64,000 bases of DNA from Callorhinchus milii (lineage: Eukaryota): positions 91,452,001 to 91,516,000 of the forward strand of contig NW_024704742.1 in NCBI RefSeq assembly GCF_018977255.1. Direction: 5' to 3'. Shown piece by piece: positions 4,449 through 63,154 of this stretch (within the stretch, counting starts at the first letter, position 1; the number at the start of each line of letters is the position of its first letter). The position numbers and the translations under genes were made by a program. The notes under the pieces were generated by a model. It ran no database searches and was not told the DNA's origin. It was given only the letters and a program-made list of their open reading frames with translations.

Positions 4449-4769
4449 ATGTCAAAGAAAACGTCAAATCCTCCTGTCTGCATACAGTTGTTCTCACTGA
4501 TTCTCCTGGTTCTCTTTGGACTTTATTGTGTGTTGAAAGGAGCTTCTTTTGCCTCGTTCAGCTGGTGGTACATATTGGGAGCCTCCTGCATTGTGGCAGC
4601 TGCCTTTGCTTCATTCCGTGTGTATGAGACCTGCGTATTAACATCTTTGAAAGAGACCACTTTGGAACATCCTGAACCTACACCTAAAAGTGATGACCTG
4701 GAAACTGATCTGCAACATCCAGCTGCAATAGGCAAGAGAATACTTACACCGGATGGACTCCACTGTTGA
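4449..4769 (+). CDS. Candidate small two-pass membrane protein (106 aa), possibly TMEM275-like
   Basis: True ATG with A at -3, in non-repeat sequence. Two hydrophobic segments (IQLFSLILLVLFGLYCVLKGA; WWYILGASCIVAAAFASF) are followed by a polar acidic tail. The family resemblance is recalled, not searched. Confidence 0.5.
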   Translation: MSKKTSNPPVCIQLFSLILLVLFGLYCVLKGASFASFSWWYILGASCIVAAAFASFRVYETCVLTSLKETTLEHPEPTPKSDDLETDLQHPAAIGKRILTPDGLHC

Positions 4770-4804
4770 AACTAACACTGTCGTTACTGGCACAACAGTT
4801 ATCT

Positions 4805-5053
4805 CTTAGGCAAGTTTCCTTATTTCATATGCCGCTGTTTACCAAGGAATAAGTCAATTGTCAGATTGCTTTTCAGGGGTAATAATCCCTCCCACCCAAA
4901 AATGTGGTCACTCAATCCACAAATGTTTGTGGGACATTGCTGTGCGCAATTGGCTGCCACTTTATGCTCACTTTAAATATATATTCTGTGAAGCGCTTTG
5001 AGATGTCTCAATGACTTGATAAGGCTCTATATCAAATGCAAAGATTATTATTA
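4805..5053 (+). mobile_element. SINE, long form, headless and diverged
   Basis: ggcaagtttcctta...gtgggacattgctgtgcgcaattggctgcc...aaatgcaaagattattatta. Confidence 0.8.
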
Positions 5054-6914
5054 ATTTGGATATTCATATTTTTCCTGACCGGCTGGGTAAAACTCTTGGA
5101 ACTTTTAATGTCTAGTTTGGATGATCCAAACCAAATGATCCCTTGAGAAGGAAACCTCTCCTCACCCTTTCCAGAATATCTCCCCTCTGCTCCTGAAGGT
5201 GTTGACATATAATGATCTGCACTTTTAGATTACAGGCAGCAAATCTTCTCCAGCACCTTCACCATGCCCAAGTGCCCATACTTGACATGTGAGCATAGAC
5301 AGTGAGTATGAGCAACCTATTCACCAGGGCTGGGGAGGGGAATTCACAGTCAAGTCCAACTCTGTCCTCACACAACGTCCACAAACAAACCTTCCAACAG
5401 ATAAAAGTGGACAGTGCAGTGCTCAAGAATGGTAATCCTGTCTGATTTTCTCCCCCAATAGATACTGAGGCAAATTGTAGTACAGTATAATGCTGTCACA
5501 GCTGAGATCACAAACAACTGGAGAAATCTTTGGGATATTTTCTAATAAATGATTTGCCAAAGTAATAGCGGTGTTTATACATTGTATTTGTAACTATAAC
5601 TTAGTACAGTTACCTTAACCCTAATGTGGAATAATTATTCATGTCAGGATTATGCAGCTACTTTAGATTCATGCTCTACGTTCATCCCTTTGCCGATCAC
5701 ATCCCAAGGGTGCTCCTTGGCACATCAATCTCAGAAGAGCATTGGAAACATTTGTCAAAATCCACAGGCTGCATTATCCCACAACCTCAATATAAAAAAT
5801 TTAGCTTTTATAAAAAGTCCCTTTCAATTTGGAGTTCAAAACTGTTTGTGACTTCTGTAAAAAAAAGTTTAATTGTGAAAAAAGTGATCATTATAATTGT
5901 TTGGATGGTTGTTTTGAACTTTGAAAGCGTATGAAATGAATTATTGTAGATATGAAATGTTTGTTATTTAGAACTATTGGAAACAACCGAGGCAATCTCT
6001 GACCAAAAGTACAATAAAATATATCAGAACTTATTGTCATTAATTGGTGTTAAGTATTATTATGAGCAATTAACCTGAGTTACAACGTATTCTTGCGATG
6101 CAAACCTCTCACATCCTTTTGGCAAGCTTTTAACTCAGTGATGTACAAGACCAGAAAAACATTGGTGTCCATCAAACACTGCTCTACCTCTCATAATCCT
6201 CAATTGATTTTTATAACATGTAACTATCTAACTCTCTCTTGAATTTGCTGACACAATCTACCGCCACTTATATCATGAGTAGCCCTTGCTTCTTATCCAC
6301 TATTTTCTGTCTAAAATAATTAAATGGTCCATTTGTCTCTCTCTCTTCTGAGATTGAGCCCATGTCCTGAGGAATTATCCTGCAAACGCTGGAAATCAAA
6401 AATACTAATAATCCTTGCATTTGAGAAGCGCCTTATCACATTGTTGAGACATCTCAAAGCGCTTCACAGAATATACTGTAAAGTGTAGTGACTGTGTATT
6501 TTGTGGGCGAAACGCGTCAGCCAATTATGCATTGCAGTGCTCCACAAACAGTCAAGGGTTACATTTACACAGCGCCTTTCAAGTCGGGAGGAGTAAAAGC
6601 AAAAATTGTTAAAAGTGCAGAGTAAGTCAACCGTTATTTGAAATAGAAATATAAGTAATAAATTTTGGACTTTGAACTCATCGGCCAGCAGTTGCCAACT
6701 CTAGTCTATCGCCACTATGTGGTGCTCTCGCACATCATCAAAATAACAAGTGGAATGAGAACTGCATAATTATTTAATTAGATTAGAAACAAAACATAAA
6801 GTATTTCATATACTTATCTCGAAATAATTGTGGTAAATATCGCTTCTTCCTCTTATCTTTATTAAGCAAGCGCAAGTGGACACCTAGTGGTGATCGACCG
6901 GTTGGAGACCCCTA

Positions 6915-7115
6915 GTTTAGGCTGACACTCCATTGTAGTGCTGAGGGAGTGATGCATTTGTGGTGGTGCTGTTGTTTGGATGAAAGGTTAAACTGAGGTG
7001 TTGTCTTCCTGTTCACAAAATAGTCAATTCACTTTACAGTATATACTGTGAAGTGTTTGAGATATCTCGAAGATGTGATAAGGTGCTATATCACATGCAA
7101 GGATTAACATTATTA
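6915..7115 (+). mobile_element. Old Deu-domain SINE remnant
   Basis: aggctgacactccattgtagtgctgagggagtgatgca resembles the DeuSINE central domain (recalled) and carries the shared L2-type tail. Confidence 0.6.
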
Positions 7116-7900
7116 GTATAACCGGCTGAACCTTAAAAATCAATTTACAGGAAATTGTGAGACACTTTCAATTATTAGGAAATGATAACATGCTATCGGT
7201 TTGTTATGTTGCCACATATGCATACAAAAAACAGTCACTGCACTTTACACAGTAAATCCTGTGAAGCTCTTTGTGATGTTCTCCCGACATGAAAGGTGTT
7301 ATACCAAATCAAAGGATTATTATTCTTATATCAAACACAGAATCTCTCCAATGTAGAACTGGGGGAGTACTGTGCATGTGGAGGACAGCACCTCCACAAA
7401 TGTAGCACTCCCCCAGCACTACATTCGAGCCTCAGCCTAGACTATTGAAGTCAGACATTTGAGAGCTCAGAGCCAAATTTGTTACTTAAATTTCTATTTC
7501 AAGATGTGGTTGGCCTGATCTGCAGGTTCAACAGATTCTGCTTTAATTTCAGATTTCCAGCATTCTCCATTTTGCAGGACTAATGGGCTCAATCCCAGAA
7601 AAGAGGGAGGGAAAGAGAGAAAGAGATGAACACAAAGATTATTGTCACTCAATAAGATTTCAGTAACTGAGTTGATTGACCTGTTGTGGATTCCCCTTAT
7701 TTTCTGGTCTAATTGAACTGGGAAGGGAATAGATTTCAAGCCACACACAGTTAAGGTGTCTGTGGTAACATTGAATGGGAATGGGCTGAGCAGCAGGTGT
7801 TTGCAGTGACTGGAGAGGGGGCCTATGTTAAATATCTGGGTTAGACAGTGTGGCTGGAGGGAGGGAGGTTTGTTACTCTCTCTCTCTGGAGGCTGGCGAG

Positions 7901-8020
7901 ATGCTGAGATCTGCTGGCTTTTTCTGGATTTCTCCTGCCCTTTTCTGAGCTGTGACTCCTGTCAGCGCCCCTTCTGTCACTTTAGACATGCCAGCCAAGC
8001 AGCCTGTGTTGTAGCCCAGG
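7901..8020 (+). CDS. REXO1-like exon 1 (contains a 1-nt frameshift at T5, 7919-7923)
   Basis: ATG CTG AGA TCT GCT GGC TTT gives MLRSAGF; the next frame gives LDFSCPFLSCDSCQRPFCHFRH. Donor G|gtaagg, phase 1. Confidence 0.85.
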
Positions 8021-10863: not shown

Positions 10864-12629
10864 ACTCTGTAGCTGTGCCATCCGAATTTGAATTCTCTAC
10901 AGCTGTGGGTCTTAAGGTATTGGAGGAGCAAAATGATTTGCCCAAATTGCCTGAAGTTGCGCATACAGTGCTTGAATTGGAAAAGGTCAGCAAAGCTATT
11001 GAGGTGGTCAAGAGTGAGGTGCAAGAGCAACAGCAGAAGCTTTTGAAGTATAAGTCGTTGCTGGAATGTGAGTCGTGTGACTCGATGACCCCATCGACAA
11101 GCAATGACTATAACTACAGCTCTCCTACTCCTAAGGTGAAGAATGTTTTACCATCTCTTCAGCGTGTATCAGTGTGTGAAGTACCAGATGCCCAATTCAA
11201 CCACATTATCTTCAATCCAACTTCGATATCTAACAGTTCTGTAAGTAAGAGCTCACTCAGTGATTTGACTGAGCAAGCTGAAGAGAAACATTTATTTCAG
11301 CATGAAACCATGGCCATTTCCAAGACAACACACAGTGAGTGCACAGATCTGCATAATAAGTATATGAATGGTAATCACAGGCTATGCAATGACTTAGAGT
11401 ATGACCCACTGATGAACTATTCTACTAATTTTGGGAGCCAATATCTCGGGAAGCAAAATATGGAGGAAAAGGAACGATTTCAGAGTTCCATTGAGCACAA
11501 CCATGAAAAGAGGCACTCGCTAGCATCCAAAAGAGCGAGGAGCTCTGAATCAGAATTCAGTTTGCAGGAGTCATCTGATGAGCTTGTTATTGATATTCCA
11601 GAAATTCCACCCCTTGTGAAGGAGTTTGCAACCAGGAAGAGAAATGCTAAATGTTTAAAATCAGCAGTAAGCTTGCAGGAATCTGACGATGATGATGATA
11701 TTCCTAAGATGCCTCTTTCCATTCAAAAGCCAGCTGCCAAGAAGAGGTTCCAGAGTGAGAGAACTGATAATACTATTTTGAATCTTAGTTTAATTCGTAA
11801 AGTAAGGCAGCGCAAGAAGGCTGAGGCCACCGCTCTACTGGTGGACGTGAGAAAATCAACGACTGATACCGATGGCTTTTCAGCAATGAAGGATGGTAAC
11901 AGCAAATGTGGTATCTATTCAGGGGATTTGCAAGAAAAACAAAAATGTAACTCAAATGAGAGCAATCCATTCACCTTAACAGATGGTCCCGTGAATGAGA
12001 GCAGCAGAAGCTATGGGCTTCCGAGCAAATCTGGAAAAAGAAAGCTGTTGGGTCTAGAAATGGTTAAAAAGATAAATTCGGGGACTTGTGCAAATGCCAC
12101 TAAACCTGCAAAATCTCTGGATCAGGAACTTGGAAGTGAATTTATACCTGATGAGTCCAAAGTGGTGTGTCAGAAACGTGAAGCTATGAAAGAAAAAATC
12201 TATGAAGAATCGCATTACAGAGCGTCCAAGAGACTGCCTGAAACCAGCTACACAAATCTGGAAGTCAATTGGCAGACTGCATGCACTGTACTGAAGTGCA
12301 GTGGTCAGGGTGCTGTCAATGAGAGCAAATACAGTGATGACTTGGGTAACAATACCTCAAGGATCAATCAGCAAGGACAAAAGTGGCCGAACCAAGGTGA
12401 CATTTTTGATGATGAAAAAGGGGCTGAGGGTTTGAAAAAGGGAGATGAGAGTCTACGAAATACAATTGATAGAGGGGAGGAATTGTCTCTTTCAGAGGAA
12501 GATGTGTCCAGTTCACTTTTAGATGAAGATCTAGACTTTTCTGAATCTGACCCAATGGAGGAATGCTTTAGGATTTTTAATGAATCCTCCAAACAAGAAA
12601 CTAAAGACAGTGGAACAGAAGCTAAACAG
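10864..12629 (+). CDS. REXO1-like exon 2 (large, mostly low-complexity)
   Basis: 598-aa ORF. Acceptor ttttaacag| is phase 1, donor CAG|gtattt. Motifs LELEKVSKAIEVVKSEV, LEYDPLMNYS, DPMEECFRIFNES. Confidence 0.92.
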
Positions 12630-17844: not shown

Positions 17845-17952
17845 AATGTCACAGCGGCCAAAACAAAACCAGATGTGCAAGAATCCGCAAAGGCAAAAAA
17901 TGCTGTGCCAGGACAAAAGAAGAGGATTGCACACATCTCAAAATTTGCTAAA
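17845..17952 (+). CDS. REXO1-like exon 3
   Basis: NVTAAK...VPGQKKRIAHISKFAK; tttag| and |gtaggt; phase 0/0. Confidence 0.85.
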
Positions 17953-18095
17953 GTAGGTTTTATGTTCTCAGACAATAATTTTGATCAGGCTCATTCACAC
18001 AGCTAACTGTGCATCTATAGTAGTTTATAATTAGAACTTATGGGGTAACTGTTGGCCTTATTAAAGGGTATATTTTTGGTTTCATCTACAATCAG

Positions 18096-18324
18096 GAAAA
18101 ATCTGTCTGCAGACGAGTAATTGTTCCGTGCTCCCTCCCGATGCCCAAGCTACAGCGCCGGAATCGAATCGTGCAAGTGCAGCAGCAGGCTATACAGCTG
18201 ACAGCCAATGTGAAAGGTGCTCAGGCCTATAAAGCTGCCACCACTTCCTCTGCTGCTCCTACCTGTTCAAAGAAAATACTTGTGCAAGGAGCAATCCCTC
18301 CACCAGTTGGTGCCATAAAATCAG
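18096..18324 (+). CDS. REXO1-like exon 4
   Basis: EKSVCRRVIVP...RIVQVQQQAIQLTANVKGAQAY; atcag| and G|gtaata; phase 0/1. Confidence 0.75.
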
Positions 18325-18358
18325 GTAATAAATGCTCTGCTCTCCTAATGCCACAGGC

Positions 18359-18515
18359 AACAACAACAAGATTACATTTGTATAGCGCCTTTCTTGTCGG
18401 GAGGACGTCCCAAGGCGCTGGACAGTGTACAGCATTTCAGACCCGAGCTGGGGTCAGGGGGAGAAGGGAGGGGAGGGGTGTGACCAATGGCATGGTTGAA
18501 GGGGATGGGGTCGGG
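18359..18515 (-). mobile_element. L2 3' end fragment
   Basis: Matches the L2 tails at 14716 and 56836. Confidence 0.85.
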
Positions 18516-20342
18516 AACATCTTGGGGAAGCAACTCGGGTCAATTGTGGCAGCCAATGTGCACATGCTGAGACTCGGAGCAGACAGGAGTGTACAGCGAG
18601 CCATGGTTAGCCCGCTGGGCTGGTGAGGCTCAGTGAGGTGATGGGGGCAGTGATGGGGCCGGTGATGTCTTCCCTGTGAGTCCTGGCCTCGAGATTCAAA
18701 TGAGGCGGGCGGGATAACATCATGCGGCAGCCAGTTGTTGATTGGCTGAGCCCTCAGAGTCCCGGATGGCGGTGCGGGCGCTAGTGCTGAGACCCTTGCG
18801 AGTCCCACCGCACCACCCCGGGTGGCCTTGGGCATCGAACTCCTCACCGGGGAAGTCCTCAGACCTTGCGTCAGCCTCACCATGGGTCACGCTCGCCGCT
18901 GAGCTGCCCCAGGCAACGGCTCTGACCGTGTCACAGGTCCCGCTGGACATTGAGCCACGGGTCCAGAGCGAGGCGCCAGTCCCAGCCTCGCTCCGGGCGC
19001 CTTGGGCCTTGATCCCAGGTAGGTTGCCTCCAACTCCACTCCACGCTCCCCGTCCACGGGAGACCTCGACTTTGAGCCCCAGAGCTCCTGATGCCCCAGC
19101 TCGAATCTGGACAACCCACAGCCAGCCCCGTGCGCCTCGAGGTCCGCGAGCGCCGCGCAGCACAACATTCAGCTCTAGATTGGAAATGTTTTTGGTCCCC
19201 GGGTGTCTGACACATTGTGAACTATCTCCATGTTTGAGAGCATCCAAACCAGACACAGTTCCACACTATTGTCACGTGTGGGAAGTTTCCCAGTCTGAAA
19301 TGGATTGTGCATTCTCTCCCTGGAGCCACACACCCTGCTTATCTATTTCAGAGTATTACAACAACTTGCACTTATATAGCACCCTCCACACAGACTGCTT
19401 AACAGTGGTGGAGCCTGACACCGAGCCAGGGGTGGGGGGAGAGGTGACTGTAAGCATGGTCGAAAAGGAAGATTTTCAGACTGTACTTGGAAAAAGGGGA
19501 GAAAGGGGGCAAGACGGAGGGATTGAGGGAGAGTGTTCCACGGTTTCTGGACGTAGTGGCTGAAAGCGCGACCTCCAATGGTGGAGCAGGAGCATGAGGG
19601 ACGAGCAGGAGGCTGGTGCCAGTCGAGTGGAGGTGCCGGGGAGGTAGGGTAGTGCCAGGGAGTGAACGGATATTAGGTATAGATTGGCAAGAGGCAAGGC
19701 TTGTAGATCCCAGAGTGAGTTGTGGAATGGCTGAAACCAGCTAAAATCCCCTGGGCTGCCATTGAGAACACTGGGTGACAAGCTTCCCACTGCATGACCA
19801 GCTAGGACCAGCCTATCTGTTAAAGTGTTTAAGGTTTGCGCTTGGAGGATTAACAGGTGCCAAGTGGGAAGAATCCCGACTCTTAGTGATTGGTTAGTTG
19901 CCCCAGGGCCTGCTGATCTAGGCTGGCTGGTCTTTCATTAGCAGTGCCCAGAGACAACCACAGAGATTGACTTGATTTCCAACATTCAATCAACCTCAGG
20001 CAAAAAAAATAATAATAATAATTTGGTGACTCAATCCATGACTTGTTTGTGGGATACTGCTGTGCGCAATTGGCTGCTGCGTTTTGCCCATAATATACAG
20101 TCAATTCACTTTACAGTATATATTCTGTGAAGCATTGAGATGTCTCGAAGGTGTGATCAAGCCCTATATCTAATGCTATTATTATATTAACCTTGTAGCT
20201 CAGCTCCAAGGAGAGCCTGCTTACCTGCTCTCCTTTACTTTCTCTTTGGCCCCCGAGGGATGGGTGTGTGTTTGGGGGGAATTGATTGGATGCTGCTGAA
20301 TTTATTATAATACAGTAAGACACTAACTGGTAGTGTTTCTAG

Positions 20343-20491
20343 TTTCTTCAAATAACTCAGGAAGAAGGTCTGCTACACTTAGTAGCTCCAGCCATAATGC
20401 CCACTTAAAAGAGCGGACAGTTTCTCAGATTGCGGCAAAGGTTGCATGTACTTTATCCAAGAGGAAGGACTATTGCACCTCTGTTCTACAG
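20343..20491 (+). CDS. REXO1-like exon 5 (alternative acceptor possible at 20334)
   Basis: Branch-point-like cactaac at 20321, acceptor ttctag|, donor CAG|gtgagg. Phase 1/0 fits both neighbours. Sequence conservation is weak. Confidence 0.6.
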
Positions 20492-20588
20492 GTGAGGCTT
20501 TTGTCATTTACCTTTTAAAGTAAGATTTTTTGAGAAAAAATTGAACCATCATGAAACTGATGTCTGCTTCTTTTGATTGTCTTTTCAG

Positions 20589-20726
20589 GGAACTAATGTG
20601 AAGAGAGCAGCTCCTTCTGCAGAAAGAGGTTCTAACATTTCCAAAAGGGTCAGGCATCGATACCTTAATTTTTTCATTGAAGAATTCTTAAAGATCTGCT
20701 CGACTGAGCAAGAGGCCTTCAATAAG
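20589..20726 (+). CDS. REXO1-like exon 6
   Basis: ...VRHRYLNFFIEEFLKICSTEQEAFNK; ttttcag| and AAG|gtaact. Confidence 0.9.
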
Positions 20727-21059
20727 GTAACTTTATTTTGAAGTAATTCGAGACATTATCGACGGTATTGTGCATAACTTGCTGTTGCTGAGTAAACCCA
20801 AGTTGAAATCATTTTGCTCAACTTTTTGGGAGAGGAATTTTGCATGAATGTTTGATACTTTGTATAGTAAGTACTCTTTAAGAATCTGGTAAGTATGCAC
20901 ACCTTTGAATTCCATTGTGTAGTTAGTTATTTCAATCTGTACTTTCCTTATAACAAACTACATTTATATAGCGCCTTTCACATCAGAAGCACATCCCAAG
21001 GCCTTTTTTTCTTTTTGGTCATCCGGGTGTCTGACACATGCAGAAACCAATCGCTGTGT

Positions 21060-21620
21060 TTAAGAGTATCCAAAACAAACTGAGGTTTCCATACATCCCA
21101 TCTACACATGGAAATCCCAGAGATAGATTGTTGTAATGGAATGCACACTCGCTCCTTTGAGGGACACATCCTGCTTACCTAATTCCGGAAAGTATTAGGT
21201 GCAGGTTGGCAAGACTTGGGGACCCCAGAGTATACGTTGGGGTATAACTGGAGTCTAACCAGCAAATACCCCTTAGCTCGACAAACTTTCTTGCTGCTAG
21301 TCCAGCTAGGACCACCTTACCCATTAGGGCTGTGGCTTGCAGGGTTAACATGAGCTGAGTAGGATAAATCCCTGCCCCCAGTGACTGGTCTCCCCTTCCA
21401 GGTCCTGCCAATGAGCCAGGCTGGCTGTGCTGTCATCAGCAGTGCCCTGGAATACCGTGGACCTGCCTGGCTCAGGAACCGGACTACCGAGACCACTGCA
21501 GAGGGCTGGCTCGATTCCAACATTCCATTGCCAGGCATGTCACCTTGGAGCCAGTTGAACTCCAAGGAGACCCCGCTTTCCTCCCCTCCAAGGAGGATAG
21601 TCACTAATCCAAAGTGCTAG
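21060..21620. repeat. Unclassified interspersed repeat (related pieces at about 19700-19990 and, inverted, about 40960-41305)
   Basis: cctgccaatgagccaggctggctg...gtgccctggaataccgtggacctgcc aligns by eye to the reverse complement of 41100-41220 and to 19905-19990. Confidence 0.65.
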
Positions 21621-22368
21621 ACAGTCGAGGATTTGCACCCAAGCGGAGGGTTGGGATCAGAAGGGATGGGGGGGAAGGGTATGTGGAATGGAGTTCCAAA
21701 GGGTGGGGGCAGAGAGGCTGAAGGCCCGACCACCGATGTACAATTTAATCATAGCCGTCCTTTCCTATCTATATATTAACTGTAAATGTACAAGAGAATT
21801 TGGTTGATCTGCTTATCAGTGGGAGTGAGATGATCAGTCCTCTGCACATGGTGATGATTACTCAGTTGCTGGGAGATTGGAAATGGCTAAAAGCAATGAA
21901 CTCAAGCATTCGTAATCTGAAATAGGAAAATAGAATAAGAAGTGTCCCTTCAGCCCATTGGGACCATTTCGCAATCTTAAAATCGCGTCAGATCTTTTAA
22001 TTCCAATATCTTTCACCTTCCCCCTTCTTACCTCTACTTCTCATCGGATGTCAGATCAACTCAATATCTGTCTCAAAGCCTAAATCTTTGAGCACGCTTT
22101 AGGTCATTCCTCCTCACCTCCCCCCTTGACTTCCAACCCTAGCTCTGGTGTCCAGCCAGTACTGTAAGTGCTTTCAGAGTGGCCTTTCACCATCTCTGCT
22201 GTATGTCTGCATACCAGTCAGCTTGACCAGGCACTTGTATCACTCTGGGTATTTTGCGATGCACCAAAATGACTGCAACGATGTGGGTTATGGAAAAACA
22301 AAATATAACTCTTTCAGTATTCCTTTATTATGTTCCTCTTTTCCTCATCTTCCGCAAATGTGTTCAAG

Positions 22369-22492
22369 GCAATCTCTGAAGAAATGATGATCTATGAACA
22401 TAATCCAGCCAGGTCTGTATATCTGAACGTAGCTGTAAGTGCTTTGAAGAAACTCCGCAATCTGGGAAATCTTGGTTCAACTGTTTCAAATG
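22369..22492 (+). CDS. REXO1-like exon 7
   Basis: AISEEMMIYEHNPARSVYLNVAVSALKKLR; donor G|gtatgt. Confidence 0.9.
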
Positions 22493-22596
22493 GTATGTCT
22501 TCAGACTAAGAGAGAATGTCTGTAATAGAAAGTGAGATGGGTCAGTACACGAAGGAAAGGATGGTTATGATTAATTGCTTTTGCTTTTTATTCTAG

Positions 22597-22641
22597 TTAA
22601 CTCTTCGGTCAAAGGCTTCCCTCCTGAAGTGGTTCTGGAAG
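22597..22641 (+). CDS. REXO1-like exon 8 (3' boundary uncertain)
   Basis: ttctag| then NSSVKGFPPEVVLE; phase-1 donor G|gtcagt matches the next exon. Confidence 0.55.
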
Positions 22642-23202
22642 GTCAGTTTCACAATGAGGGCCCATTTTCAATAGATGTGATATTAGCAGACATTTTCTCT
22701 GTTTGCTTCCCTGTAAGTGAATATTAGGAAGTTTCACAGGAAAAGTCACACCCCTTGTATTTTCCTAGTAGTGACCTATCTTTTTTTAATGTGCAGTTGA
22801 TTCCATATCAATAGCCTGCAGTGTGTTTCACATTCTCTATATGAAGAAATCTCATCTGGTCTGATGTTTCAAATGATTTAACTCGCATTTTAAGACTATA
22901 CCCCCTTGTTTTGTATCCTTATACTAGAATGGGTCTTCTCTTTGTTATTTTGAATACTGTGACTAAATCATCCTTTATGCATTAAAATCCAAGTTACTCA
23001 ATCTTTTTGTAGCTAAACCCTTTAATTCCAGATATAATCTAGTGAAATTAAGGGTAAGAAAATAAGAGGGACTGATTTACAATTTAAGGTGGAACAAGAG
23101 GCTTGTTTCCATCCTGAACCACAGAAGATTCTTCTTTTGAACTAATTACACTGGATATTCACTTTGTCTTTAACTGTACAGTACATGTGTTGTGTAAGAC
23201 AG

Positions 23203-23337
23203 ATACTGCACTGTATTGGCTGCTCAAGGAATATGTCTTAACTGAAGAACAGTTAAAGGAGAATGGATATCCTCGAGAAAATTTTGATAAGCCAGGAGTT
23301 GCACTATTGTTTGGATGTGATAAGTACTATGGTGACC
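23203..23337 (+). CDS. REXO1-like exon 9 (alternative in-frame acceptor at 23182)
   Basis: TALYWLLKEYVLTEEQLKENGYPR; donor C|gtgagt. Confidence 0.85.
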
Positions 23338-24394
23338 GTGAGTATAGTGTGAAATCTTTCCACCGCATCACATCTGACTACAAATGCATTGTAAATGTTC
23401 ACTGAAACTTAGATTTATATTGCACAATGTTTCATCAAAACGTCTGTGCTTCACAAGTAGTTGCATTATTTTTGTAAGTGATAGCAAGGTCCTACAAACA
23501 TTCATGAGGTGACTGGTCAATTAATCTGGAGGATTGATGGTCAGGATACTGGGAGAAACTCCTTTCTCTTTTACAAAAGTGTCATAGGATTTATTAATAT
23601 CTTCCTGAAGATGGTGAGACAGGATTTCAATTTATAATCATTCACTCTGAGGACTGCATTTCTGACAAAGCATCACTCCCCAAGTACTGCACTGATGTAT
23701 CGTCCCAGATTAGGGGCCTATCAATTCAAATAGCAACGTGGGACTTAGTGTGGAAAAACACATTCAGCTATTGCTTTCTACAATCATTAGATTTAAAAAC
23801 CTTTTGTTTTCACTCTTGGTATTTTACACGTTTGTCAGCTGCTGTCTATCCTTTAAGATGTTTTAAGTTGAAACTAACTATCCCAAAGTAGGTATTTGAT
23901 TATTTACAATATATTGTGCATTGGGATACTAGTCTACAGTAATATTCCATTGTATCTCCCTTTAAAATGATATTTGTACACTACAACCAAATGTATCCAG
24001 CAGGTGTTGGTGTAGATACAGAATTGCAATAACTAAAGTAAGCTCAGCTCTCCCAGGCAAACCTTAGCTAATTTTGTTTATTGCCATTCACTCTTATGTA
24101 GAAATTACACTTCCAACTATAGAATATTCCCAGCTACATATTTAATGCACCCAGAGAGAGTGCATGTCATAGTGATCTGCATTTCAGTATTTACAGAAAT
24201 ATTTGAATGTACAAAAGGTTTTACAAGCACTCTTGTGAGATTTTTTTTTATTTGTAAGGATTTTTATTCAGTGTTATGTACTGGAAATTACCTTTTTCAG
24301 GTAATCTGACTGCAGCTCACTTCTCAAACTATTTTACCAACAAATAGTCACTTTGGAAAATAAAAACCTAAATAGGGTAGAGGAGCAAAGGGGG

Positions 24395-24670
24395 CCATCA
24401 ATATAAAATAGTCACAAATAGATCAAATAGGGAAGTTAGAAGAAGTTTCTTCACACAGAGTAGTGGGAATGTGGAACATACAACCACATGGAGTTGTTGA
24501 GGCAAATAGCATAGATGTAGTTAAGGGAAAGCTACATAGGTATATGAGGGAGAAAGGAATAGAAGGTTAGGCTTGAAGGCTTAGTTGAAGAAGGGCAGGA
24601 GGAGGCTCATGTGGAGCATAAACACCAGCATAGACAACGGGGCCGAATGGCCTGTTCTGTGCATTCTAAT
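24395..24670 (+). mobile_element. CR1 3' end fragment
   Basis: agaagaagtttcttcacacagag...gtgggaatgtggaac...gggccgaatggcctgttctgtg. Confidence 0.7.
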
Positions 24671-24727
24671 GTACATTACAGTAAATTCTGTAAACCTCTT
24701 TGAAACACTCACCCTTTGTGGGAGGTG

Positions 24728-24993
24728 CTAGACCTGGGTTCGATTCCCGGCAGGGCAAAACCTTGGGCAAGTTTCCTCACTCTACACGCCTGATAATAAT
24801 CCCTCAAGAAAAAAAACAATAATAAAATTGATCACTTCAATGCCCGACTGTTTGTGGGACACTGCTGTGCACAATTGGCTGCCACGTTTCGCCCACAAAT
24901 ATACCTTCAATTCACTTTACAGTCTATTCTGTGAAGCGCTTTGGGACGTCCAGAAGACGTGAAAAGCGCTATATCAAATGCAAGTATTATTAT
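24728..24993 (+). mobile_element. SINE, 5' truncated
   Basis: B-box GGTTCGATTCC, body and tail. Confidence 0.88.
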
Positions 24994-26550
24994 AAGGGTT
25001 CTTCTAACCTACAGGAGAATTCTACTGTTAGTTTATCAGTATGAACAGCTGACTTGAAAGGCACATAAACCATTGACTCATCTCGTCCTGAGCAGCAACA
25101 GAGTAAAGCTCACACTTAAAACTTAAACTACATATAACTGTTGAGAAATCAGGGATGATTTTAAAGGTTGGGATTTGTTTAGATAATTAATTGTCTGTCG
25201 CTAACATTTACTTTTTTTGTGTGAAGTTTGATAACCTACTTTTCCCATTGATTAGATTGTATACCTGAAAGCAGCTGCACATAATAAAAACAAAAATGAT
25301 AATACTTGCATTTGATAGTCTTATCACATCTTCGAGACGACAAAGCGCTTCACAGAATATACTTTAAAGTAAATTGACTGTATTTTTGTGTGAGAAACAC
25401 AGCAGCCAATTGAGCATAGCAGAGTCCCACAAACAATCATGGATTAACGACATTTTTTTGAAAAGATATTCCAGTTATGCCCACCACCTGTTCTTTCACA
25501 ACAACAGTTTGAGATTGCGTACCTGCCTCTGTTGCTGTGTAAACAAAGAGAAAACAGCCCACGTATTGCCAGACCCCTATTCCCGATATTGGTAAATTCT
25601 CCACCCTTCAACTTCATTCTTCAAAGCACACAGACTGAATGACTAAAATTTGTTCTGCTCCCACGCTCTTTGCACAAGCTCCTTCTTCAGAGATGGAAAG
25701 AGAAATCTTTCAGAACTTCTCTACACTTCCTCGCTCGTGCCCTTCTGTAAAGTGTGTAAGAAAGAGGTTATCTGCTCTCTTGTCAGTAAATGGAATGTGT
25801 ATAAAGGGGCTTGAACAAAAATTGGAAATGGTTCTACTAAAATCTACTTTTATAATTCTATCACCAGCCTAAAGGGCCTACTAAAATCCCCATTTACTAC
25901 GACGTATACCAGTGAGTTTCTTCTAAAGAGGAGACTGTTGTTTCTCTTTACTGACAAACAAATGATACAGTAAAAGCTTTCTCCATCTTGTAATTTTGTT
26001 CTTTTACTGTCTTCAGCCTGTGTTTCAAATCTTCTCAAGTGATACGGGTTTTTTAGTACTGCTTTTTGGGGATTTTTTTTAATATAGTCGTACATAAATT
26101 TTAGAAGAAGTTTACATTTGCTTATTAAGTGGTGTCTTAGCCTGAATTAAAAGTACGTGGGTTCATAGTGCAGGCTGCCAACTATAGGATGGTATTGGGA
26201 GTGAGCGCTGTTGGTGGTTTTGTCTTTTGAATGATATGTTAAATTGAGGTTCTGTTTGGGTGGCTATTAAGAGAACATCTGAGGCTATTTGAAAAGAGGA
26301 GATATTTTCCTGGGAAGCTGAGCCAACAATGTGCCACATAAATCGGTCATCCATCCCCCCCTGGCTGTTTGGGGGATATAACTGTACACAGCATGGCTTT
26401 GGCTACAAATAATCACTGCACTCAACAGTAATTACTGTAAAGTGCTTTAAGATATTTTGACATTAGAGACCCTATCAAATTGCAAGCATTATTTTTATTA
26501 TTGTTCCTGTAATGTAAAAAGGTTTATGTTGTGACCTTGTTCTTTTTAAG

Positions 26551-26664
26551 CTTTGAACAAGATTTGCTGCCGTTGTGGAGCATTGTTCTCTGTAACACCT
26601 GGAGGAAGTTATATCTCTAAAAAGGAATGTAAATATCATTGGGAACCAGCCCAAACACAACGAG
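26551..26664 (+). CDS. REXO1-like exon 10
   Basis: LNKICCRCGALFSVTPGGSYISKKECKYHW; tttaag| and G|gtgagt. Confidence 0.92.
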
Positions 26665-27665
26665 GTGAGTACATATTTTAACACCAAATCCTTAAATCAA
26701 TCATTCTTTTATACATGTAAGGGAAAGGATACAGGACTTTCCTCTGGGTGCAAATGGTTGGGAACAATTGATTGTACTGAAAATAACATTCAAAGGGTTG
26801 AACATTTAAATCGATGGGCAGGTAGTCTTTCGTGTGAATAAATTTATTTTTTGCCTGAAACAAGAGTACGCAATAAATCATTAAAATTTTATAGCACAGA
26901 AGGAGGCCATTCGTCCCAAGTGCCTGTGCGGCTCTTTGAAAAAGCTACCAACTAGTCCCACTCCCCCACTCTTACCCTATAACCCTGCAAATTTTTCCTT
27001 TTTAAGTCCATAATCAATAATATTAATAATAAAGTTTGCATTTGATATAGTATTTTCTCAGGTCTTTGAGACATCTCAAAGTGCTTCACAGAATATATTG
27101 TAAATTAAATTGACTGTATTCTGTGTACTAAACACGCAAAAGGCAAACTGTTGGTGTGATTTGTTTGAAAAGTATCCAGTGTAAACTTCCTATCAACCAG
27201 GGTAATCAAGTACTCGGCTTGTTGTTGTTATCATTTTGTGTGATGTTGGGCACCCTACCCTCAAAAATGCTTCTGCATTGGACAGAGCAAAAATATAATT
27301 GTGGGAATTACCAGAAATCGATTATCAAGTATTCACCAAGACAAAATTAATATTCTTCCCAGAGAAGAGCTGAATCCCTTTCTTAGTAGGGAGTTCTTAG
27401 TTTGTGCCGTACTTGACCTGAGATATTGGCACTTGGTTCAAAATGTTTCATATACCACCATGTTTGTGCGTCACTCTATTGGGTACAAAATTCAGATGAC
27501 AATAACTTGCATATATATAGCTCTCCTCACACAGGGCGCTTTATTTTGTGGGGATGTTGGGTACCTTACCTTGGGGCAAAAAGAACATTAATTAAACATG
27601 TCTGTACTTCCAATGACATAGGGATGTTGTACATTTAAAAAAAANGATGCTCTATGTAATTATAG

Positions 27666-27769
27666 TGCCTGGTGGATGGGAAATCCAATACAGTTGCTGT
27701 AAAGGGTCATTGGGATCAGATGGATGTGAGGTTGCTAAGCTATGCAAGACATCAGTAAATGAAAATAAG
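27666..27769 (+). CDS. REXO1-like exon 11 (donor apparently shifted 30 nt downstream)
   Basis: PGGWEIQYSCCKGSLGSDGCEVAK. The expected donor after 27739 reads AAG|ctatgc; an in-frame AAG|gtagga follows 27769. Confidence 0.8.
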
Positions 27770-28176: not shown

Positions 28177-28284
28177 TTGCATGTCTGCAATCGAAAAGAA
28201 AACCTTGAAGGTTTTATGAAGACCTTTCTTAGGCTGATGCCCCTTGATGGAAATCCTGGTGTGTTTGCAGTGCACTGTGAGATG
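28177..28284 (+). CDS. REXO1-like exon 12 (ExoI motif, with H in place of D)
   Basis: [17 protein letters not shown]...[10 protein letters not shown]; donor ATG|gtaagt. Confidence 0.92.
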
Positions 28285-28400
28285 GTAAGTATATTTTAAA
28301 AAAAACCTTATTTTTATTTCTGCCCTTTATTCCTTTCATCAAACACTTTTGTCCTAAAATCTTTGTACATGAGACAGATTTGTATGTACCTCCAATTTGT

Positions 28401-48930: not shown

Positions 48931-49069
48931 ATGAACATGATGAATGATCAGGGAGTTGGCAGATTTTCCTCTGCCATTTCCAGTACCCCTCCCTCCCTGT
49001 ACAGTTTCTACCAGCAGGGGCTGTACCCCATGACTCCTCATGTTCTCACACTCGCCCAACGCCTGACAG
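48931..49069 (+). CDS. DMBX1-like homeobox gene, coding exon 1
   Basis: MNMMNDQGVGRFSSAISSTPPSLYSFYQQGLYPMTPHVLTLAQRLT resembles the DMBX N-terminal HALTLAERLA motif. Donor G|gtacgg, phase 1. Not in the supplied ORF track. Confidence 0.8.
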
Positions 49070-49836: not shown

Positions 49837-50012
49837 TCCTTGAGGTGAGATACAGGAATCATCACTATGAAAAGCAGAGACGAAGCAGGACAGCATTCAC
49901 TGCTCAGCAGCTGGAAACCCTGGAAAAGACATTCCAGAGAACCCACTATCCCAATGTAGGAATGAGAGAGACACTGGCAATAAGCACAAACCTGCCCGAG
50001 GCAAGACTGCAG
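49837..50012 (+). CDS. DMBX1-like coding exon 2 (homeodomain residues 1-46)
   Basis: [58 protein letters not shown]; donor CAG|gtaacc at the canonical PRD-class Q46/V47 intron position. Confidence 0.92.
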
Positions 50013-51571: not shown

Positions 51572-51890
51572 GTGTGGTTCAAGAACAGGAGAGCAAAGTT
51601 TCGTAAAAAGCAGCGCTCTCTCCAAATAGCACAATGTCAAGGGAAGGACGAATGGCAGGTTACGGAGTCCGAACAGAAACAGGAAAAAGACTTGAAGCCA
51701 GTCGACAATGAGAGGAAGAGCCTAAGCACAACTCCCAAGGGAGGGGAGAACCAGCTCCCTTTGTTATTGGATTACAAAAGCCCTGTTAATGACTTGGCCT
51801 CTCTGAGTTCACTGGCACTCGCACCGTATTCTAATCGCACAATATTACACAAACCGTGGGATAGTGAACTCAGACTCCATGGTGTTGAAG
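51572..51890 (+). CDS. DMBX1-like coding exon 3 (recognition helix, K50)
   Basis: VWFKNRRAKFRKKQRSLQ; ttctag| and G|gtaatt. Confidence 0.92.
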
Positions 51891-54047: not shown

Positions 54048-54454
54048 GTGCTGATTCTGATATCGGAGGTTTACGTTGTCTGACGTCTTTGGTAACTCCC
54101 ACCCACTCGTCAAACATGTGTGTTTTGCAGGATGATTTTAGCAGATATGTTCCCATTCCTGGGTCCATTGGCTGCTATTTTTCTTTTGACCTTCCATTGG
54201 GTACCAGCCCTGTTTCCTACATAGACATCAACACAGCTACTGCTCTGTGTAATATGCAGTGTCAGCAATGCCCGCAAGAAGCCTGGACTTGTCCCATCCC
54301 CGGGAAGCTGACAAGACTGACCTCCAAATCCTCCAGTATTGAAAGCCTGAGGCTCCGTGCGAAGCAGCATGTGATGGCTCTTGGGCTGCACAAATCCAGC
54401 ACAGCAAGAGAATACAGGACGATAACAAACACACCTAGCTGGGAATTACATTAG
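54048..54454 (+). CDS. DMBX1-like coding exon 4 (OAR motif, stop)
   Basis: Acceptor cctgcag|, phase 1; LTSKSSSIESLRLRAKQHVMALGL is an OAR motif. The spliced CDS is 1041 nt, 346 aa. Confidence 0.9.
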
Positions 54455-59618: not shown

Positions 59619-59978
<360 letters not shown>

Positions 59979-60460
59979 TTATGCTTTTGAAAAAGTTACA
60001 AAATGTTAAAAAAATTGTGACAATCTTAAAGTTACAATAAAAAAGTGCTCTAAAGAGATGAATTTGAAAGCACTTCTGACCATTTTTGCTCCATTCTTTT
60101 GTCAAGAATACACAAATCAAGATTACAATACATTATAGAGGATATCGAATAGACTACAGTGTAACAGGATAATCTGCTTGGTAGGAGCTTGGCATTTGTT
60201 GAGATTATAGAGTACTCAAGCACTGAATTTCCTTGTTAGCTTTTAAAATGACACCACCAGTCTATGACACACAGAGCTTCAGGTAACAGTTTAAATTATA
60301 GCCTCTAGAGAGGATGTGACTACCTGACTGGTCCTCATTCACCATAAATCCTTCACTCTCTGAATTTTCTATGGTCTCAGGAGTGCTTTCTTTGAGGATA
60401 CTTGTCTCCACTCAATGCAGTATGGCTAGCAAATCACACTCAGACTTCATGTCTGAAAGT

Positions 60461-60783
60461 GGAGTCCTGTAGCTCAGTGGTTAGAGCACTCGCTTTGCAA
60501 GCGAGAGACCTGAGTACAATTCCAGGCAGGGCGAAACCTTGGGCAAGTTTCCTTACTCCACATGCCTAATAATAATCCCTCCAAAACCAAAAACAATAAT
60601 AAATTGGTCATTTTCAATCTATGACTGTTTGTGGGACATCGCTGTGCGCAATTGGCTGCCGCGTTCGCCCACAAATATACAGTCAATTCACTTTACAGTG
60701 TGTTCTGTGAAGCGCTTTGGGACGTCCTCCCGACGTGAAAAGCGCTATATCAAATGCAAGGATTATTATTATTATTATTATTA
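60461..60783 (+). mobile_element. Full-length young SINE in a TEK intron
   Basis: Near identical to 28401-28713. Confidence 0.93.
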
Positions 60784-60958
60784 CAGTAAAACTCGCATAA
60801 ATCTGATCAGTACAAATCATATAATCGCCTAAGTTGCACATCTGCCTGAGTCCTGTTCAAGAGTTTATAATTCTATGCAAGGTTGACATAACTCATACTT
60901 TGCATAAGTCATATTAAATATATGGTCCCAACTGATACGACTTATGTGATCTTTACTA
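60784..60958. mobile_element. Old MITE with imperfect terminal inverted repeats of about 29 bp (Tc1/mariner-pogo type)
   Basis: 5' TA|CAGTAAAACTCGCATAAATCTGATCAGT versus the reverse complement of the 3' end, TAGTAAAGATCACATAAGTCGTATCAGT. Confidence 0.55.
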
Positions 60959-61199
60959 CAGAGTTAAGAGCCGATACCTCCATGTCTCATTGATGTGACT
61001 GACAATCTGGACAACCTCCAACAATGCCTATGATTATTGCGACCTGCCTGGCTTCTCTTGACAACTCGGCCTCAGGGAAAACTTGCTCAATAAGCTGGAA
61101 AGGCTAACGATCCAAAGCTCAGCATTCATTTTTATGCTGAGGGGTTCTACATCCACTGACAAGGGGAGTCAAATGTATTGAAGGATTTGAGGAACTTAC

Positions 61200-61296
61200 A
61201 CTTCACCGACACAGTTCAATGGTTTTTCCATCCTGTATCCTTGGGGTAGTTTCTCATAAAGTTCAGCACAGGACATCCCACAATATGGCGTGCCAC
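61200..61296 (-). CDS. TEK: TEK exon (kinase)
   Basis: [32 protein letters not shown]. Confidence 0.95.
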
Positions 61297-61419
61297 CTAG
61301 CCACAGTTGCAAAGCAAAGAAGGGTTATTTTATGTTATCCTTAAACAGGACAATTTCAATAGTTTAGACGAACCATGCAAGAGTAAAATACCGTCGTGTA
61401 AAATACTGGGGTGAAAAAT

Positions 61420-61810
61420 ATAATAGCATTTGACAATAGTGCCATTTCACACTGTTGAAACGTCTCAGAATGCTTCAGAAAATTTATTGTAAAATATAGT
61501 AAAATATCAGCTGAGTATAAATAGCTGAATGTGGCAGGCAATTTGTGCACAGCAATGCCAAATAAATAGCCATGCGGTGAATGCTCAATTTTATGTGGAG
61601 GATTGTTGGGCAGGACATCATGAGAAATTCCCTTCTCTTTTTGAGTAGTGCCATGAAATCCTTAACATCCACTTGAATAGGAAGATAGGACTTTGGTTTA
61701 ATGTCTTACCGAACAATAGCACCCCTGACAAGGCAGCATATCCCTAGAATGCCAGCCTAAACTAGAAACTCAAAGTCTCATCGTGGGCTTGGACCCATAG
61801 CCTTCTGACA
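61420..61810 (-). mobile_element. Old Deu-domain SINE
   Basis: Similar to 42540-42925. Confidence 0.6.
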
Positions 61811-62218
61811 CCTCAACACCAAGATGTGATGTTTCATAACAGATTCAAGGTGGTAAATATCTCAGAGATGGGCAGGAGATATTCACTATTTTACACACTC
61901 AGGGAAGGAATTCAATTCAATTTGATTCACTCTAGTCTCTTAGTTTTCCAGAATTTTGAAAATTCTTAAATACAGCCTTACTTCTGAAACCAGCTGTCTG
62001 TAAGTATTTTTCCAAATTAATGAAAATTGGCTTCAAAGTTATGACTGATTTCAACAGTTTGCTCTGAAAGGCTAAGAGAATAAAAACTGAAATGTTTGAA
62101 ATCTGGAGAGGTGGAATTCAGCCCGTATATAATTGTGGGCTCACTGGTATCATATAAACTCCTGTCTCCTCGCATTCCACATGGTTACGTGAATGAAGTA
62201 AAAGATTGCATCACTTAC

Positions 62219-62259
62219 CTAAACTAACAATTTCCCACAAGAGAACCCCATATGACCAC
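62219..62259 (-). CDS. TEK: TEK exon (kinase subdomain IX)
   Basis: WSYGVLLWEIVSLG; 41 nt with canonical splice sites. Confidence 0.95.
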
Positions 62260-63083
62260 CTGCAAAAAGAAAATTCAGTGAGTGAATGTTATATGTTTAC
62301 AGCTCTTTGGTGATGGGTTATGATTGAGAAACAAGTCATTGTTCTATATATATATGCAGTTGGATCACTTTATCTGAAAAAGGTATTGTTGTAATTTCTG
62401 TTTGTTAAGAATGTACAAAACAATGAAACAAAATTTGTGATATTCATAATGTGTTTTTATTGACCATATTATTATAATACTAATAATCCTAGCATTTGAT
62501 ATAGTGCCTTTCATGCTGGGACGATATCTCAACAGGATTTATTGTAAAGTGTAGTGACTGTGTATGTTATAGGGGAAATTTAGCAGCAGTGAATTTGAGT
62601 ATAGCAATTTCCCACAAAGTCAAGTAGAGGAAGAGGGTCACAAGATCTCAAGATTACAAGACTAGTTTGAATGATGAAGGCCCTTCGGCTCATATGATCC
62701 TCCTGAACACCCAGCTTATTTTTCTCCCATTACAGCATCAAGCATCTTTTTAAATAAGTCCAGTGTCCTGGCCTCAACCACCCTTCCTAGCAATCTGCTC
62801 CAGTCATTAATTACTGTCTAGGTAAAGAAAAACTTGCTGGTGCTTATCCTGAAATTTCCCTTTGCAACTCTATATCTATGTCTTTTTGTTCTACTATCTT
62901 GGTGCATTCTAAAGTAAATAGATTCTGTAAGTTGGGGGAAGTAGCCTCAATGAGCAGATCAGGAAGCTTAAGCATGTGCTCTGAGGATGTTAATACAAGC
63001 AGATACAGGTGGAGGTTTCAGGCTGTAGATAAACTAGCAGAGTCAGGCCCAATCCTAGTGTGAGGTGCAGAAGTGAAACTTAC

Positions 63084-63154
63084 ACATCGCTGTTCGTAGT
63101 GTAAACGCTGTAATTTAAGGACTCAATAGCCATCCATCGAACAGGAAGCCTTCC
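63084..63154 (-). CDS. TEK: TEK exon (kinase subdomain VIII); the gene continues beyond the window
   Basis: GRLPVRWMAIESLNYSVYTTNSDV. Confidence 0.95.

What the first reader, a model, noticed from the sequence alone, without database searches (positions are those of the whole stretch)
4449..63154. Whole window looks like a retained 2R paralogon block: TM ORF - REXO1-like - DMBX-like - TEK
Seen: gene order as in the title. Recalled human synteny: TEK lies beside MOB3B (9p21); DMBX1, TMEM275, MKNK1 and MOB3C lie together on 1p33 with TIE1 on the same arm; REXO1 lies near MKNK2 and MOB3A (19p13.3). Inference: the TEK/MOB3B copy of this ancestral segment kept REXO1 and DMBX paralogues here that are absent from the human TEK locus, so the window preserves the pre-duplication neighbourhood.
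Basis: partly seen in the sequence, partly recalled or inferred. Interest (0 to 1): 0.75.

Follow-up and report, generated by a model that had tools for sequence, protein, structure and literature searches.

The report
Chimaera's extra Dmbx and REXO1 copies
Beside the blood-vessel receptor gene TEK, this chimaera (elephant shark) keeps intact extra copies of a brain-patterning gene and an RNA-trimming gene that most likely date from the genome doublings at the origin of vertebrates and that mammals lack at this spot.

Summary
The gene order is real: a lone two-helix ORF, an intact 16-exon REXO1 paralogue, an intact 4-exon Dmbx paralogue, and the 3' end of TEK. The proteins match named Callorhinchus milii records. 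The REXO1-like exon-1 frameshift is an assembly error, and the gene is spliced. Published orthologue tables place the true DMBX1 elsewhere. A further Dmbx class, spread across jawed vertebrates, also has a C. milii member, so this gene is a third Dmbx. The REXO1 copy groups with a waterfowl 'GOR-like' gene (95/84) inside vertebrates, and both have eroded the first catalytic motif. Best reading: whole-genome-duplication ohnologues kept beside TEK (0.72), probably from different rounds. Limits: AU tests reject no deep alternative. The Dmbx tree cannot date the duplication, and no orthologue was found outside C. milii. MOB3B beside the window was not shown, and the ORF's link to TMEM275/KNCN is untested. 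RefSeq already holds both genes under generic names. Verdict: new members of a known kind (cryptic ohnologues), moderate interest.

The parts
4449..4769 (+). Single-exon 106-aa ORF with two N-terminal hydrophobic helices and a polar tail; possible small membrane protein gene (KNCN/TMEM275-like layout, recalled); gene status unproven
7901..8020 (+). REXO1-like exon 1 (start codon, Cys/His motif); the window lacks one T of a T run at about 7924, an assembly error
10864..12629 (+). REXO1-like exon 2 (1766 nt); probable RNA contigs of three runs end exactly at its donor, 12629
17845..27769 (+). REXO1-like exons 3-11 (17845-17952, 18096-18324, 20361-20491, 20589-20726, 22369-22492, 22597-22641 or -22712, 23203 or 23199-23337, 26551-26664, 27666-27769): EloA-BP1 domain and Cys-rich region
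28177..34189 (+). REXO1-like exons 12-16 (28177-28284, 28912-29027, 30695-30833, 33035-33155, 34098-34189): DEDDh exonuclease domain; first catalytic Asp reads His (exon 12)
48931..49069 (+). Dmbx-like exon 1 with the Dmbx N-terminal motif
49837..50012 (+). Dmbx-like exon 2, homeodomain residues 1-46
51572..51890 (+). Dmbx-like exon 3, recognition helix with K50
54048..54454 (+). Dmbx-like exon 4, eroded mid-C-terminal Dmbx motif and OAR motif, stop
59619..63154 (-). TEK (TIE2) last five coding exons: 63084-63154, 62219-62259, 61200-61296, 59859-59958, 59619-59693; tail-to-tail with the Dmbx gene, 5.2 kb apart

Best explanation
The window is the elephant-shark copy of the C9orf72-(MOB3B)-TEK-IFT74 segment. 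It still carries two duplicates made by the early vertebrate genome doublings and lost from the mammalian TEK locus. The REXO1 copy is most likely the macrochromosome (alpha) partner of microchromosomal REXO1 from the jawed-vertebrate doubling (2R). It survives at least in chimaera and waterfowl and has drifted to an Elongin-A-binding protein with a weakened or dead nuclease. The Dmbx copy is a third jawed-vertebrate Dmbx, most likely split from DMBX1 at the first doubling (1R), together with TEK/TIE1 and MOB3B/MOB3C. It keeps a K50 homeodomain and OAR, so it should still bind bicoid-type sites as a transcription factor, but evolves much faster than DMBX1. Shown: intact genes, splicing of REXO1-like, paralogue status of the Dmbx gene, origin within vertebrates. 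Inferred: assignment to 1R/2R, loss of catalysis, the Z location of the bird copy, function of the Dmbx protein.
For: True DMBX1 lies elsewhere: in PMC8302630 supplementary tables the anole/human DMBX1 partner is SINCAM005429, and SINCAM005425, 005426 and 005432 map to human ids recalled as RAD54L, LRRC41 and NSUN4; gar ids for these genes run in order with MOB3C and MKNK1. The same tables give C9orf72 = SINCAM920563, TEK = 920566, IFT74 = 920567, leaving two slots, as in the window. In gar a MOB3-family gene (3808) follows TEK (3757). 119 of 119 other listed hits share one identical 46-residue homeodomain stretch, while the window protein differs from DMBX1 at 8 of 60 homeodomain positions. 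A separate Dmbx class (16 rows, 99/99) includes another C. milii gene on a 10.7-Mb contig and excludes the window gene. The window Dmbx falls inside vertebrates (99/98) and keeps the amphioxus state at three OAR-region sites where 9 of 9 DMBX1 rows and lamprey share another. REXO1-like is 55% identical to gar REXO1, against 77% for gar-chicken. It groups with goose and duck 'GOR-like' at 95/84 inside a vertebrate clade (90/92) with 8 non-vertebrate outgroups. Two residues in the nuclease core occur together only in the 2 C. milii and 8 waterfowl rows of 127 examined. Waterfowl copies lie on 81-85 Mb contigs, while seven bird REXO1 records lie on 5.9-9.4 Mb contigs, the large/micro pattern described for 2R pairs (PMC8302630). 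A bird-specific origin of that copy is rejected (p-AU 0.023).
Against: No orthologue of the window Dmbx was found outside C. milii. Dmbx trees do not date the split: the three AU tests gave p 0.28-0.34, and the best tree put the gene with DMBX1 at 34/17. For REXO1, 'window = plain orthologue' (p 0.22), 'duplication on the bony-fish stem' (p 0.10) and 'tetrapod-only duplication' (p 0.063) are not rejected. Polarised sites are 4 for window+goose against 3 for window+REXO1 and 1 for goose+REXO1, of 218. Both grouped branches are long, and REXO1 monophyly has only 55/54. No second, conventional C. milii REXO1 was seen among the 120 of 389 hits listed. The anole MOB3 gene beside C9orf72 is paired in the tables with an elephant-shark gene next to MKNK2, so MOB3B beside this TEK is not shown. 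Gene names behind the Ensembl ids are recalled, and the 92xxxx id series is only partly positional. No cyclostome or shark REXO1 was available.
Confidence: 0.72

Rival explanations
1. The REXO1 copy is an old ohnologue, but the Dmbx gene is a cartilaginous-fish or chimaera-only duplicate of DMBX1 that moved beside TEK and diverged quickly.
For: No orthologue outside C. milii. Long branch and unresolved placement, with the best block tree nominally joining it to DMBX1 (34/17). Lineage-specific divergent dmbx1 duplicates exist: the Sardina and Coilia proteins look like such copies by eye.
Against: It would have had to land by chance in a segment already paralogous to the DMBX1 segment (MOB3, TIE families). 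It keeps outgroup states at three OAR-region sites.
Confidence: 0.13
2. The block arose by a segmental duplication in the vertebrate stem rather than by whole-genome doubling.
For: The trees only bracket the events between invertebrates and crown jawed vertebrates.
Against: The large/micro chromosome pattern of the REXO1 pair and three MOB3-bearing segments, each with partners from this set, fit the 1R/2R scheme.
Confidence: 0.07
3. The REXO1-like gene is simply the chimaera's own REXO1 orthologue, moved and fast-evolving, or a decaying pseudogene.
For: p-AU 0.22 for window + REXO1; no other C. milii REXO1 seen. Signs of decay: His in motif I, usual exon-11 donor lost, RefSeq isoform X2 skips exons.
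Against: 95/84 grouping with the waterfowl copy and shared core residues; 55% against 77% identity; open frame over 16 exons and spliced RNA contigs.
Confidence: 0.08

Closest known systems
DMBX1 / zebrafish dmbx1a, dmbx1b (PRD class, K50, OAR)
   Same: N-terminal motif, K50 homeodomain, OAR; Atlas first hit DMBX1 cluster at 0.94.
   Different: 8 of 60 homeodomain changes where DMBX1 is invariant from lamprey to mammals in the rows seen; mid-C-terminal motif eroded; lies beside TEK, not among RAD54L/LRRC41/NSUN4.
Second jawed-vertebrate Dmbx class (here 'class B'; perhaps the gene called dmbx2, zgc:101100, in zebrafish; identity not checked)
   Same: Cryptic, fast-evolving Dmbx paralogue with no mammal among its named rows; shares a few homeodomain residues with the window gene.
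   Different: Own clade at 99/99 without the window gene, no OAR detected in the rows scanned, and its own C. milii member XP_007897137. Union with the window gene is not rejected (p 0.28).
REXO1 (EloA-BP1, RNA exonuclease 1 homolog)
   Same: Domain order (N-terminal Cys/His motif, EloA-BP1, Cys-rich region, DEDDh domain), about 1200 aa, multi-exon.
   Different: 50-58% identity in the C-terminal 450 aa; motif I HxE against DxE in 103 of 112 covering rows.
Waterfowl 'exonuclease GOR-like / RNA exonuclease 1 homolog' (XP_047906029 and cluster)
   Same: Likely orthologue: 95/84, shared core residues, eroded motif I, large chromosome.
   Different: Only 48% identical; motif I altered in other ways (NxN in goose and swan, DxD in Oxyura); position next to TEK not seen.
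Cryptic ohnologues lost in mammals (Pdx2, Bmp16, FoxG2/3, Pax10; recalled)
   Same: Whole-genome-duplication copies kept in slowly evolving lineages, fast-evolving, generically annotated.
   Different: Here two or three such genes sit side by side in one 60-kb interval.

Membership tests
Dmbx homeobox family | PRD-class homeodomain with K50 and best similarity to Dmbx | tested here: met
Dmbx homeobox family | N-terminal Dmbx motif and C-terminal OAR | tested here: met
DMBX1 orthologue | Position among RAD54L, LRRC41, NSUN4, MKNK1, MOB3C and near-invariant homeodomain | tested here: not met
   another C. milii gene holds that place (gene names recalled from ids); 8 of 60 changes
Dmbx class B | Member of the class B clade | tested here: inconclusive
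   excluded in the best tree (99/99), but union not rejected (p 0.28); C. milii has a separate class B gene
REXO1 family | EloA-BP1 domain plus DEDDh exonuclease domain | tested here: met
Active DEDDh exonuclease | Acidic D-x-E in motif I, D in motif II, H and D in motif III | tested here: not met
   motif I reads H-x-E where SDN1, ISG20 and ISG20L2 have D-x-E; the other residues are present. Activity itself not testable
Retrocopy (as primate REXO1L1/GOR, recalled) | Intronless | tested here: not met
   15 introns
1R/2R ohnologue | Duplication after invertebrates and before crown jawed vertebrates | tested here: inconclusive
   lower bound met for both; upper bound favoured for REXO1-like (95/84, AU tests not decisive), unresolved for Dmbx
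1R/2R ohnologue | Paralogous neighbours on paralogous segments | tested here: met
   id order in PMC8302630 tables: MOB3C-MKNK1-DMBX1 and IFT74-TEK-MOB3 in gar; MKNK2-MOB3 and C9orf72-x-y-TEK-IFT74 in elephant shark; indirect, names recalled
1R/2R ohnologue | Single pro-orthologues on one amphioxus linkage group; alpha/beta assignment | not testable with these tools
   no eukaryote genome search; the held supplement is cut before such tables
TEK/TIE2 | Kinase C-lobe and tail of TIE2; IFT74/C9orf72 neighbourhood | tested here: met
   31 of 33 and 22 of 23 identical to human TIE2; no TIE1 kinase sequence was available for contrast
KNCN / TMEM275 | Sequence homology of the 106-aa ORF | tested here: inconclusive
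   no Pfam or Atlas support; no reference sequence could be fetched; only the two-helix layout and position recall them

The most novel reading that the evidence does not exclude
The jawed-vertebrate ancestor had three Dmbx genes, and this chimaera gene is the last known survivor of the third. Its neighbour is a REXO1 ohnologue that became a pseudo-nuclease separately in chimaeras and waterfowl, and the small ORF is the lost sister of KNCN/TMEM275. The window would then be the most complete surviving copy of a pre-1R block MOB3 - two-helix gene - REXO1 - Dmbx - TIE.
Probability: 0.3. Interest if true: 0.62.

Novelty: new member of a known kind. Interest (0 to 1): 0.42.

Why it matters
Dmbx1 is treated as a single-copy midbrain and cranial-crest regulator. 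PMC2954992 speaks of a single Dmbx1 in land vertebrates, and PMC10153176 says Dmbx has no 1R/2R paralogues with a similar function. Three copies in a chimaera, and a second class in newt, turtle and lizard, would change the starting set for questions on midbrain origins and give a direct test: where are the extra copies expressed? The REXO1 copy offers a natural comparison of catalytic and scaffold roles. The general phenomenon, ohnologues kept in cartilaginous fishes and lost in mammals, is well known, which caps the surprise.

Tried and rejected
No genome is held for the window, so flanks could not be read. Dmbx C-terminal search found only the gene itself and one weak goby hit. Atlas on the small ORF: nothing at 0.9 or more. 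The ORF's bin has no cover in 3 of 3 probable RNA runs while the DNA run covers it; no run is on record as RNA, so this is not evidence either way. An apparent 25-residue deletion shared with goose was dropped, because exon 8 can also be read in a long form with canonical ends. One Albula row lacked the recognition helix and was dropped from the Dmbx tree; a Polypterus fragment was left out of the REXO1 trees; 8 of 14 inspected metagenome loci, of 80 kept, served as outgroups; 5 distant outgroup rows were left out of the block tree. The full-length Dmbx tree was uninformative (branch 7.3). Viral and prokaryote collections held no REXO1 relative. Gene-symbol search of the held supplements of PMC8302630 other than file 4 found nothing; reading table parts 23 and 84 did not locate a chicken REXO1-like gene; several recalled ids were absent. 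Ten literature searches found no description of this locus, of a third Dmbx or of a non-primate REXO1 paralogue. The gar genome paper, where I recall extra Dmbx names may be used, is not held. Earlier scan notes: nothing relevant. tRNA calls are heads of a repeat, not genes.
Full report
What is in the window. The sequence is vertebrate DNA rich in LINE and SINE fragments. No whole genome is held. I built exon models from the sequence. A 106-aa ORF lies at 4449-4769 (+). A 16-exon REXO1-family gene runs from 7901 to 34189 (+). A 4-exon Dmbx-family gene runs from 48931 to 54454 (+). The last five coding exons of a TIE kinase lie on the minus strand, 63154-59619; two of them match human TIE2 at 31 of 33 and 22 of 23 residues. 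The Dmbx protein differs at 2 of 346 residues from a UniRef record of Callorhinchus milii; its cluster holds RefSeq XP_042202770 on a 139-Mb contig and XP_007890765. A REXO1-like exon matches XP_007890767 in full. Both genes are therefore already in RefSeq under generic names.

Are the genes intact? REXO1-like exon 1 breaks frame at a run of five T in the window. One DNA run and one probable RNA run each show a contig with an extra T at 7924. The RNA contig joins 7878-8019 to 10863-11014, and contigs of three probable RNA runs stop at the exon 2 donor, 12629. The break is an assembly error, and the product is about 1200 aa. The runs are only guessed to be RNA, but a contig that skips the intron is spliced. 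The Dmbx gene is open throughout, and a second UniRef record (V9KYB2) has the same four-exon structure with small sequence differences; I recall such entries come from cDNA. I could not lay reads on it. The small ORF is harder. Its length is common by chance (1205 of 2500 simulations); its two hydrophobic stretches are not (7 of 2500, thresholds set afterwards). It has no family hit. Its layout and place recall KNCN or TMEM275 beside DMBX1 (recalled), but I could fetch neither, so homology is untested.

The Dmbx gene is a third copy. Of the 120 hits listed (423 found), the 119 other than the gene itself share one identical 46-residue homeodomain stretch; the window protein differs from DMBX1 at 8 of 60 homeodomain positions. 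RefSeq calls it DMBX1 without 'like', so I tested whether it is the displaced orthologue. The orthologue tables of PMC8302630 (supplementary file 4, rows seen; the file is held cut) pair human DMBX1 through anole with SINCAM005429. Its numerical neighbours 005425, 005426 and 005432 map to human ids that I recall as RAD54L, LRRC41 and NSUN4, and gar ids for MOB3C, MKNK1, DMBX1 and these three run in order. This id series follows position. So a true DMBX1 sits in its usual place. The search of all representatives also exposed another class, named in C. milii (XP_007897137, 10.7-Mb contig), two rays, reedfish, swordfish, coelacanth, lungfish, newt, turtle and lizard. It forms a clade at 99/99 that excludes the window gene. 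A preprint passage names a zebrafish dmbx2 (zgc:101100); whether it is this class I did not check. No orthologue of the window gene turned up outside C. milii, though a slower orthologue could hide in a DMBX1 cluster at 50% identity. Trees place the gene inside vertebrates (99/98) and no further, because DMBX1 has hardly changed: AU tests gave p 0.28, 0.34, 0.33 and 0.42. Three OAR-region sites keep the amphioxus state against 9 DMBX1 rows and lamprey, a small hint of a 1R split.

The REXO1 copy is old and not confined to chimaeras. Over the C-terminal 450 aa it is 55% identical to gar REXO1, against 77% for gar and chicken. One listed hit, a goose 'exonuclease GOR-like', and its cluster (goose, swan, ruddy duck) share two core residues with it; the pair occurs in those 10 rows of 127, against 102 rows with the REXO1 pair, 14 partly covered and 1 mixed. 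With 8 unnamed non-vertebrate outgroups from metagenomes, chimaera and waterfowl group at 95/84 inside vertebrates (90/92). All 8 outgroups have the REXO1 state at the first diagnostic site. A bird-only origin is rejected (p 0.023); tetrapod-only (0.063), bony-stem (0.10) and 'plain orthologue' (0.22) are not. Polarised sites split 4:3:1 of 218. Both branches are long, so the grouping is favoured, not proven. The waterfowl genes lie on 81-85 Mb contigs, the size I recall for Z, where I recall birds keep TEK; seven bird REXO1 records lie on 5.9-9.4 Mb contigs. PMC8302630 (passages) describes 2R pairs as a large chromosome plus a microchromosome. I did not see a conventional C. milii REXO1.

How the REXO1 copy probably works. 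Motif I reads H-x-E in both C. milii records, N-x-N in goose and swan and D-x-D in Oxyura, against D-x-E in the other 103 of 112 covering rows and in SDN1, ISG20 and ISG20L2. The first Asp binds both metals in DEDD nucleases (established knowledge), so catalysis is probably weak or lost, by different changes in each lineage. The EloA-BP1 domain remains, which points to a binding role. The loss of the usual exon-11 donor and the exon-skipping RefSeq isoform fit relaxed selection.

Neighbourhood. In the same tables C9orf72, TEK and IFT74 of elephant shark are SINCAM920563, 920566 and 920567. TEK is identified as the row after TIE1 in family-sorted files and by chicken id order. 920564 is paired with a human id I recall as the exonuclease REXO5, and 920565 has no anole partner. 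Two slots between C9orf72 and TEK fit the window's two genes, though this series is only partly positional. In gar a MOB3-family gene follows TEK. Its anole partner is paired with SINCAM012869, next to MKNK2 (012870), so MOB3B beside the chimaera TEK is not shown and may be unannotated or lost. Three segments thus share MOB3 with MKNK, Dmbx, REXO1 or TIE members. From the published scheme (recalled for these chromosomes) the TEK and REXO1 segments are 2R partners and the DMBX1/TIE1 segment is the other 1R copy. That the order is the ancestral one is a parsimony inference; no amphioxus order was seen. Whether the genes are held together by shared enhancers or are a passive relic was not tested; with the waterfowl copy surviving and no Dmbx orthologue found there, a passive relic seems likelier.

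Comparison and novelty. This is the known pattern of cryptic, fast-evolving ohnologues kept in cartilaginous fishes and lost in mammals (examples recalled). Ten searches found no paper on this locus, a third Dmbx or this REXO1 paralogue. Papers seen: PMC8302630 (passages, supplementary rows); PMC10153176, PMC2954992, PMC5596316, PMC10525774, PMC11034925, PMC13553756, 10.1101/2022.05.24.493215 and 10.1101/2024.05.13.593729 (passages only). The library lacks most subscription papers and the gar genome paper, where I recall extra Dmbx names may appear. The uncut remainder of the PMC8302630 archive and the paralogue tables of the hagfish paper, which I could not see, may already classify these genes.

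Verdict. Observation confirmed; interpretation partly supported. Ohnologue origin of both genes 0.72. New members of a known kind; interest 0.42.

Noticed in passing
window 59619-59693 (-): The TEK tail has Phe where human TIE2 has the second tail Tyr (22 of 23 otherwise identical). I recall this Tyr as the Dok-R docking site and TIE1 as having Phe there.
   Followed up: partly
proteins P0176, P0202, P0205, P0185, P0165, P0214, P0210, P0426, P0203, P0209: A second Dmbx class without detected OAR, in chimaera, rays, reedfish, a teleost, coelacanth, lungfish, newt, turtle and lizard, mostly mislabelled DMBX1-like (one as Lhx9-like); clade at 99/99.
   Followed up: partly
proteins P0298, P0396-P0402: Waterfowl REXO1 paralogue on 81-85 Mb contigs with motif I altered (NxN or DxD); named 'GOR-like' although it is not the primate GOR copy.
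   Followed up: yes
window 7919-7924: Homopolymer deletion in the assembly that breaks REXO1-like exon 1.
   Followed up: yes
window 27740-27770 and 22641-22712: The usual exon-11 donor of REXO1-like reads CT instead of GT and an in-frame donor 30 nt on adds 10 residues, as in RefSeq isoform X2; exon 8 has two possible in-frame ends.
   Followed up: partly
window 49782-49836: RefSeq XP_042202770 uses an upstream acceptor that adds 17 residues before the Dmbx homeodomain, the spot where DMBX1 also has alternative acceptors.
   Followed up: no
proteins P0159, P0160, P0194: Divergent Dmbx copies in two clupeiform fishes and a second, very divergent lamprey Dmbx; placement unresolved.
   Followed up: partly
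window 28400-28715 and 34 other places: A tRNA-headed SINE of about 315 bp, full copies 80-94% alike; accounts for the tRNA calls.
   Followed up: yes
window 13680-17200, 41330-41900, 47400-48260, 50390-51330, 52300-53600, 56870-57630: Broken LINE fragments; reverse-transcriptase domains confirmed at 14930-15922 and 15789-16976, the others judged by eye from translations (no Pfam hit).
   Followed up: partly
window 18650-19260: GC- and CpG-rich 600-bp stretch in REXO1-like intron 4 with long open frames on both strands, nearly single copy in the window, no Pfam hit; unexplained, perhaps part of a mobile element.
   Followed up: partly
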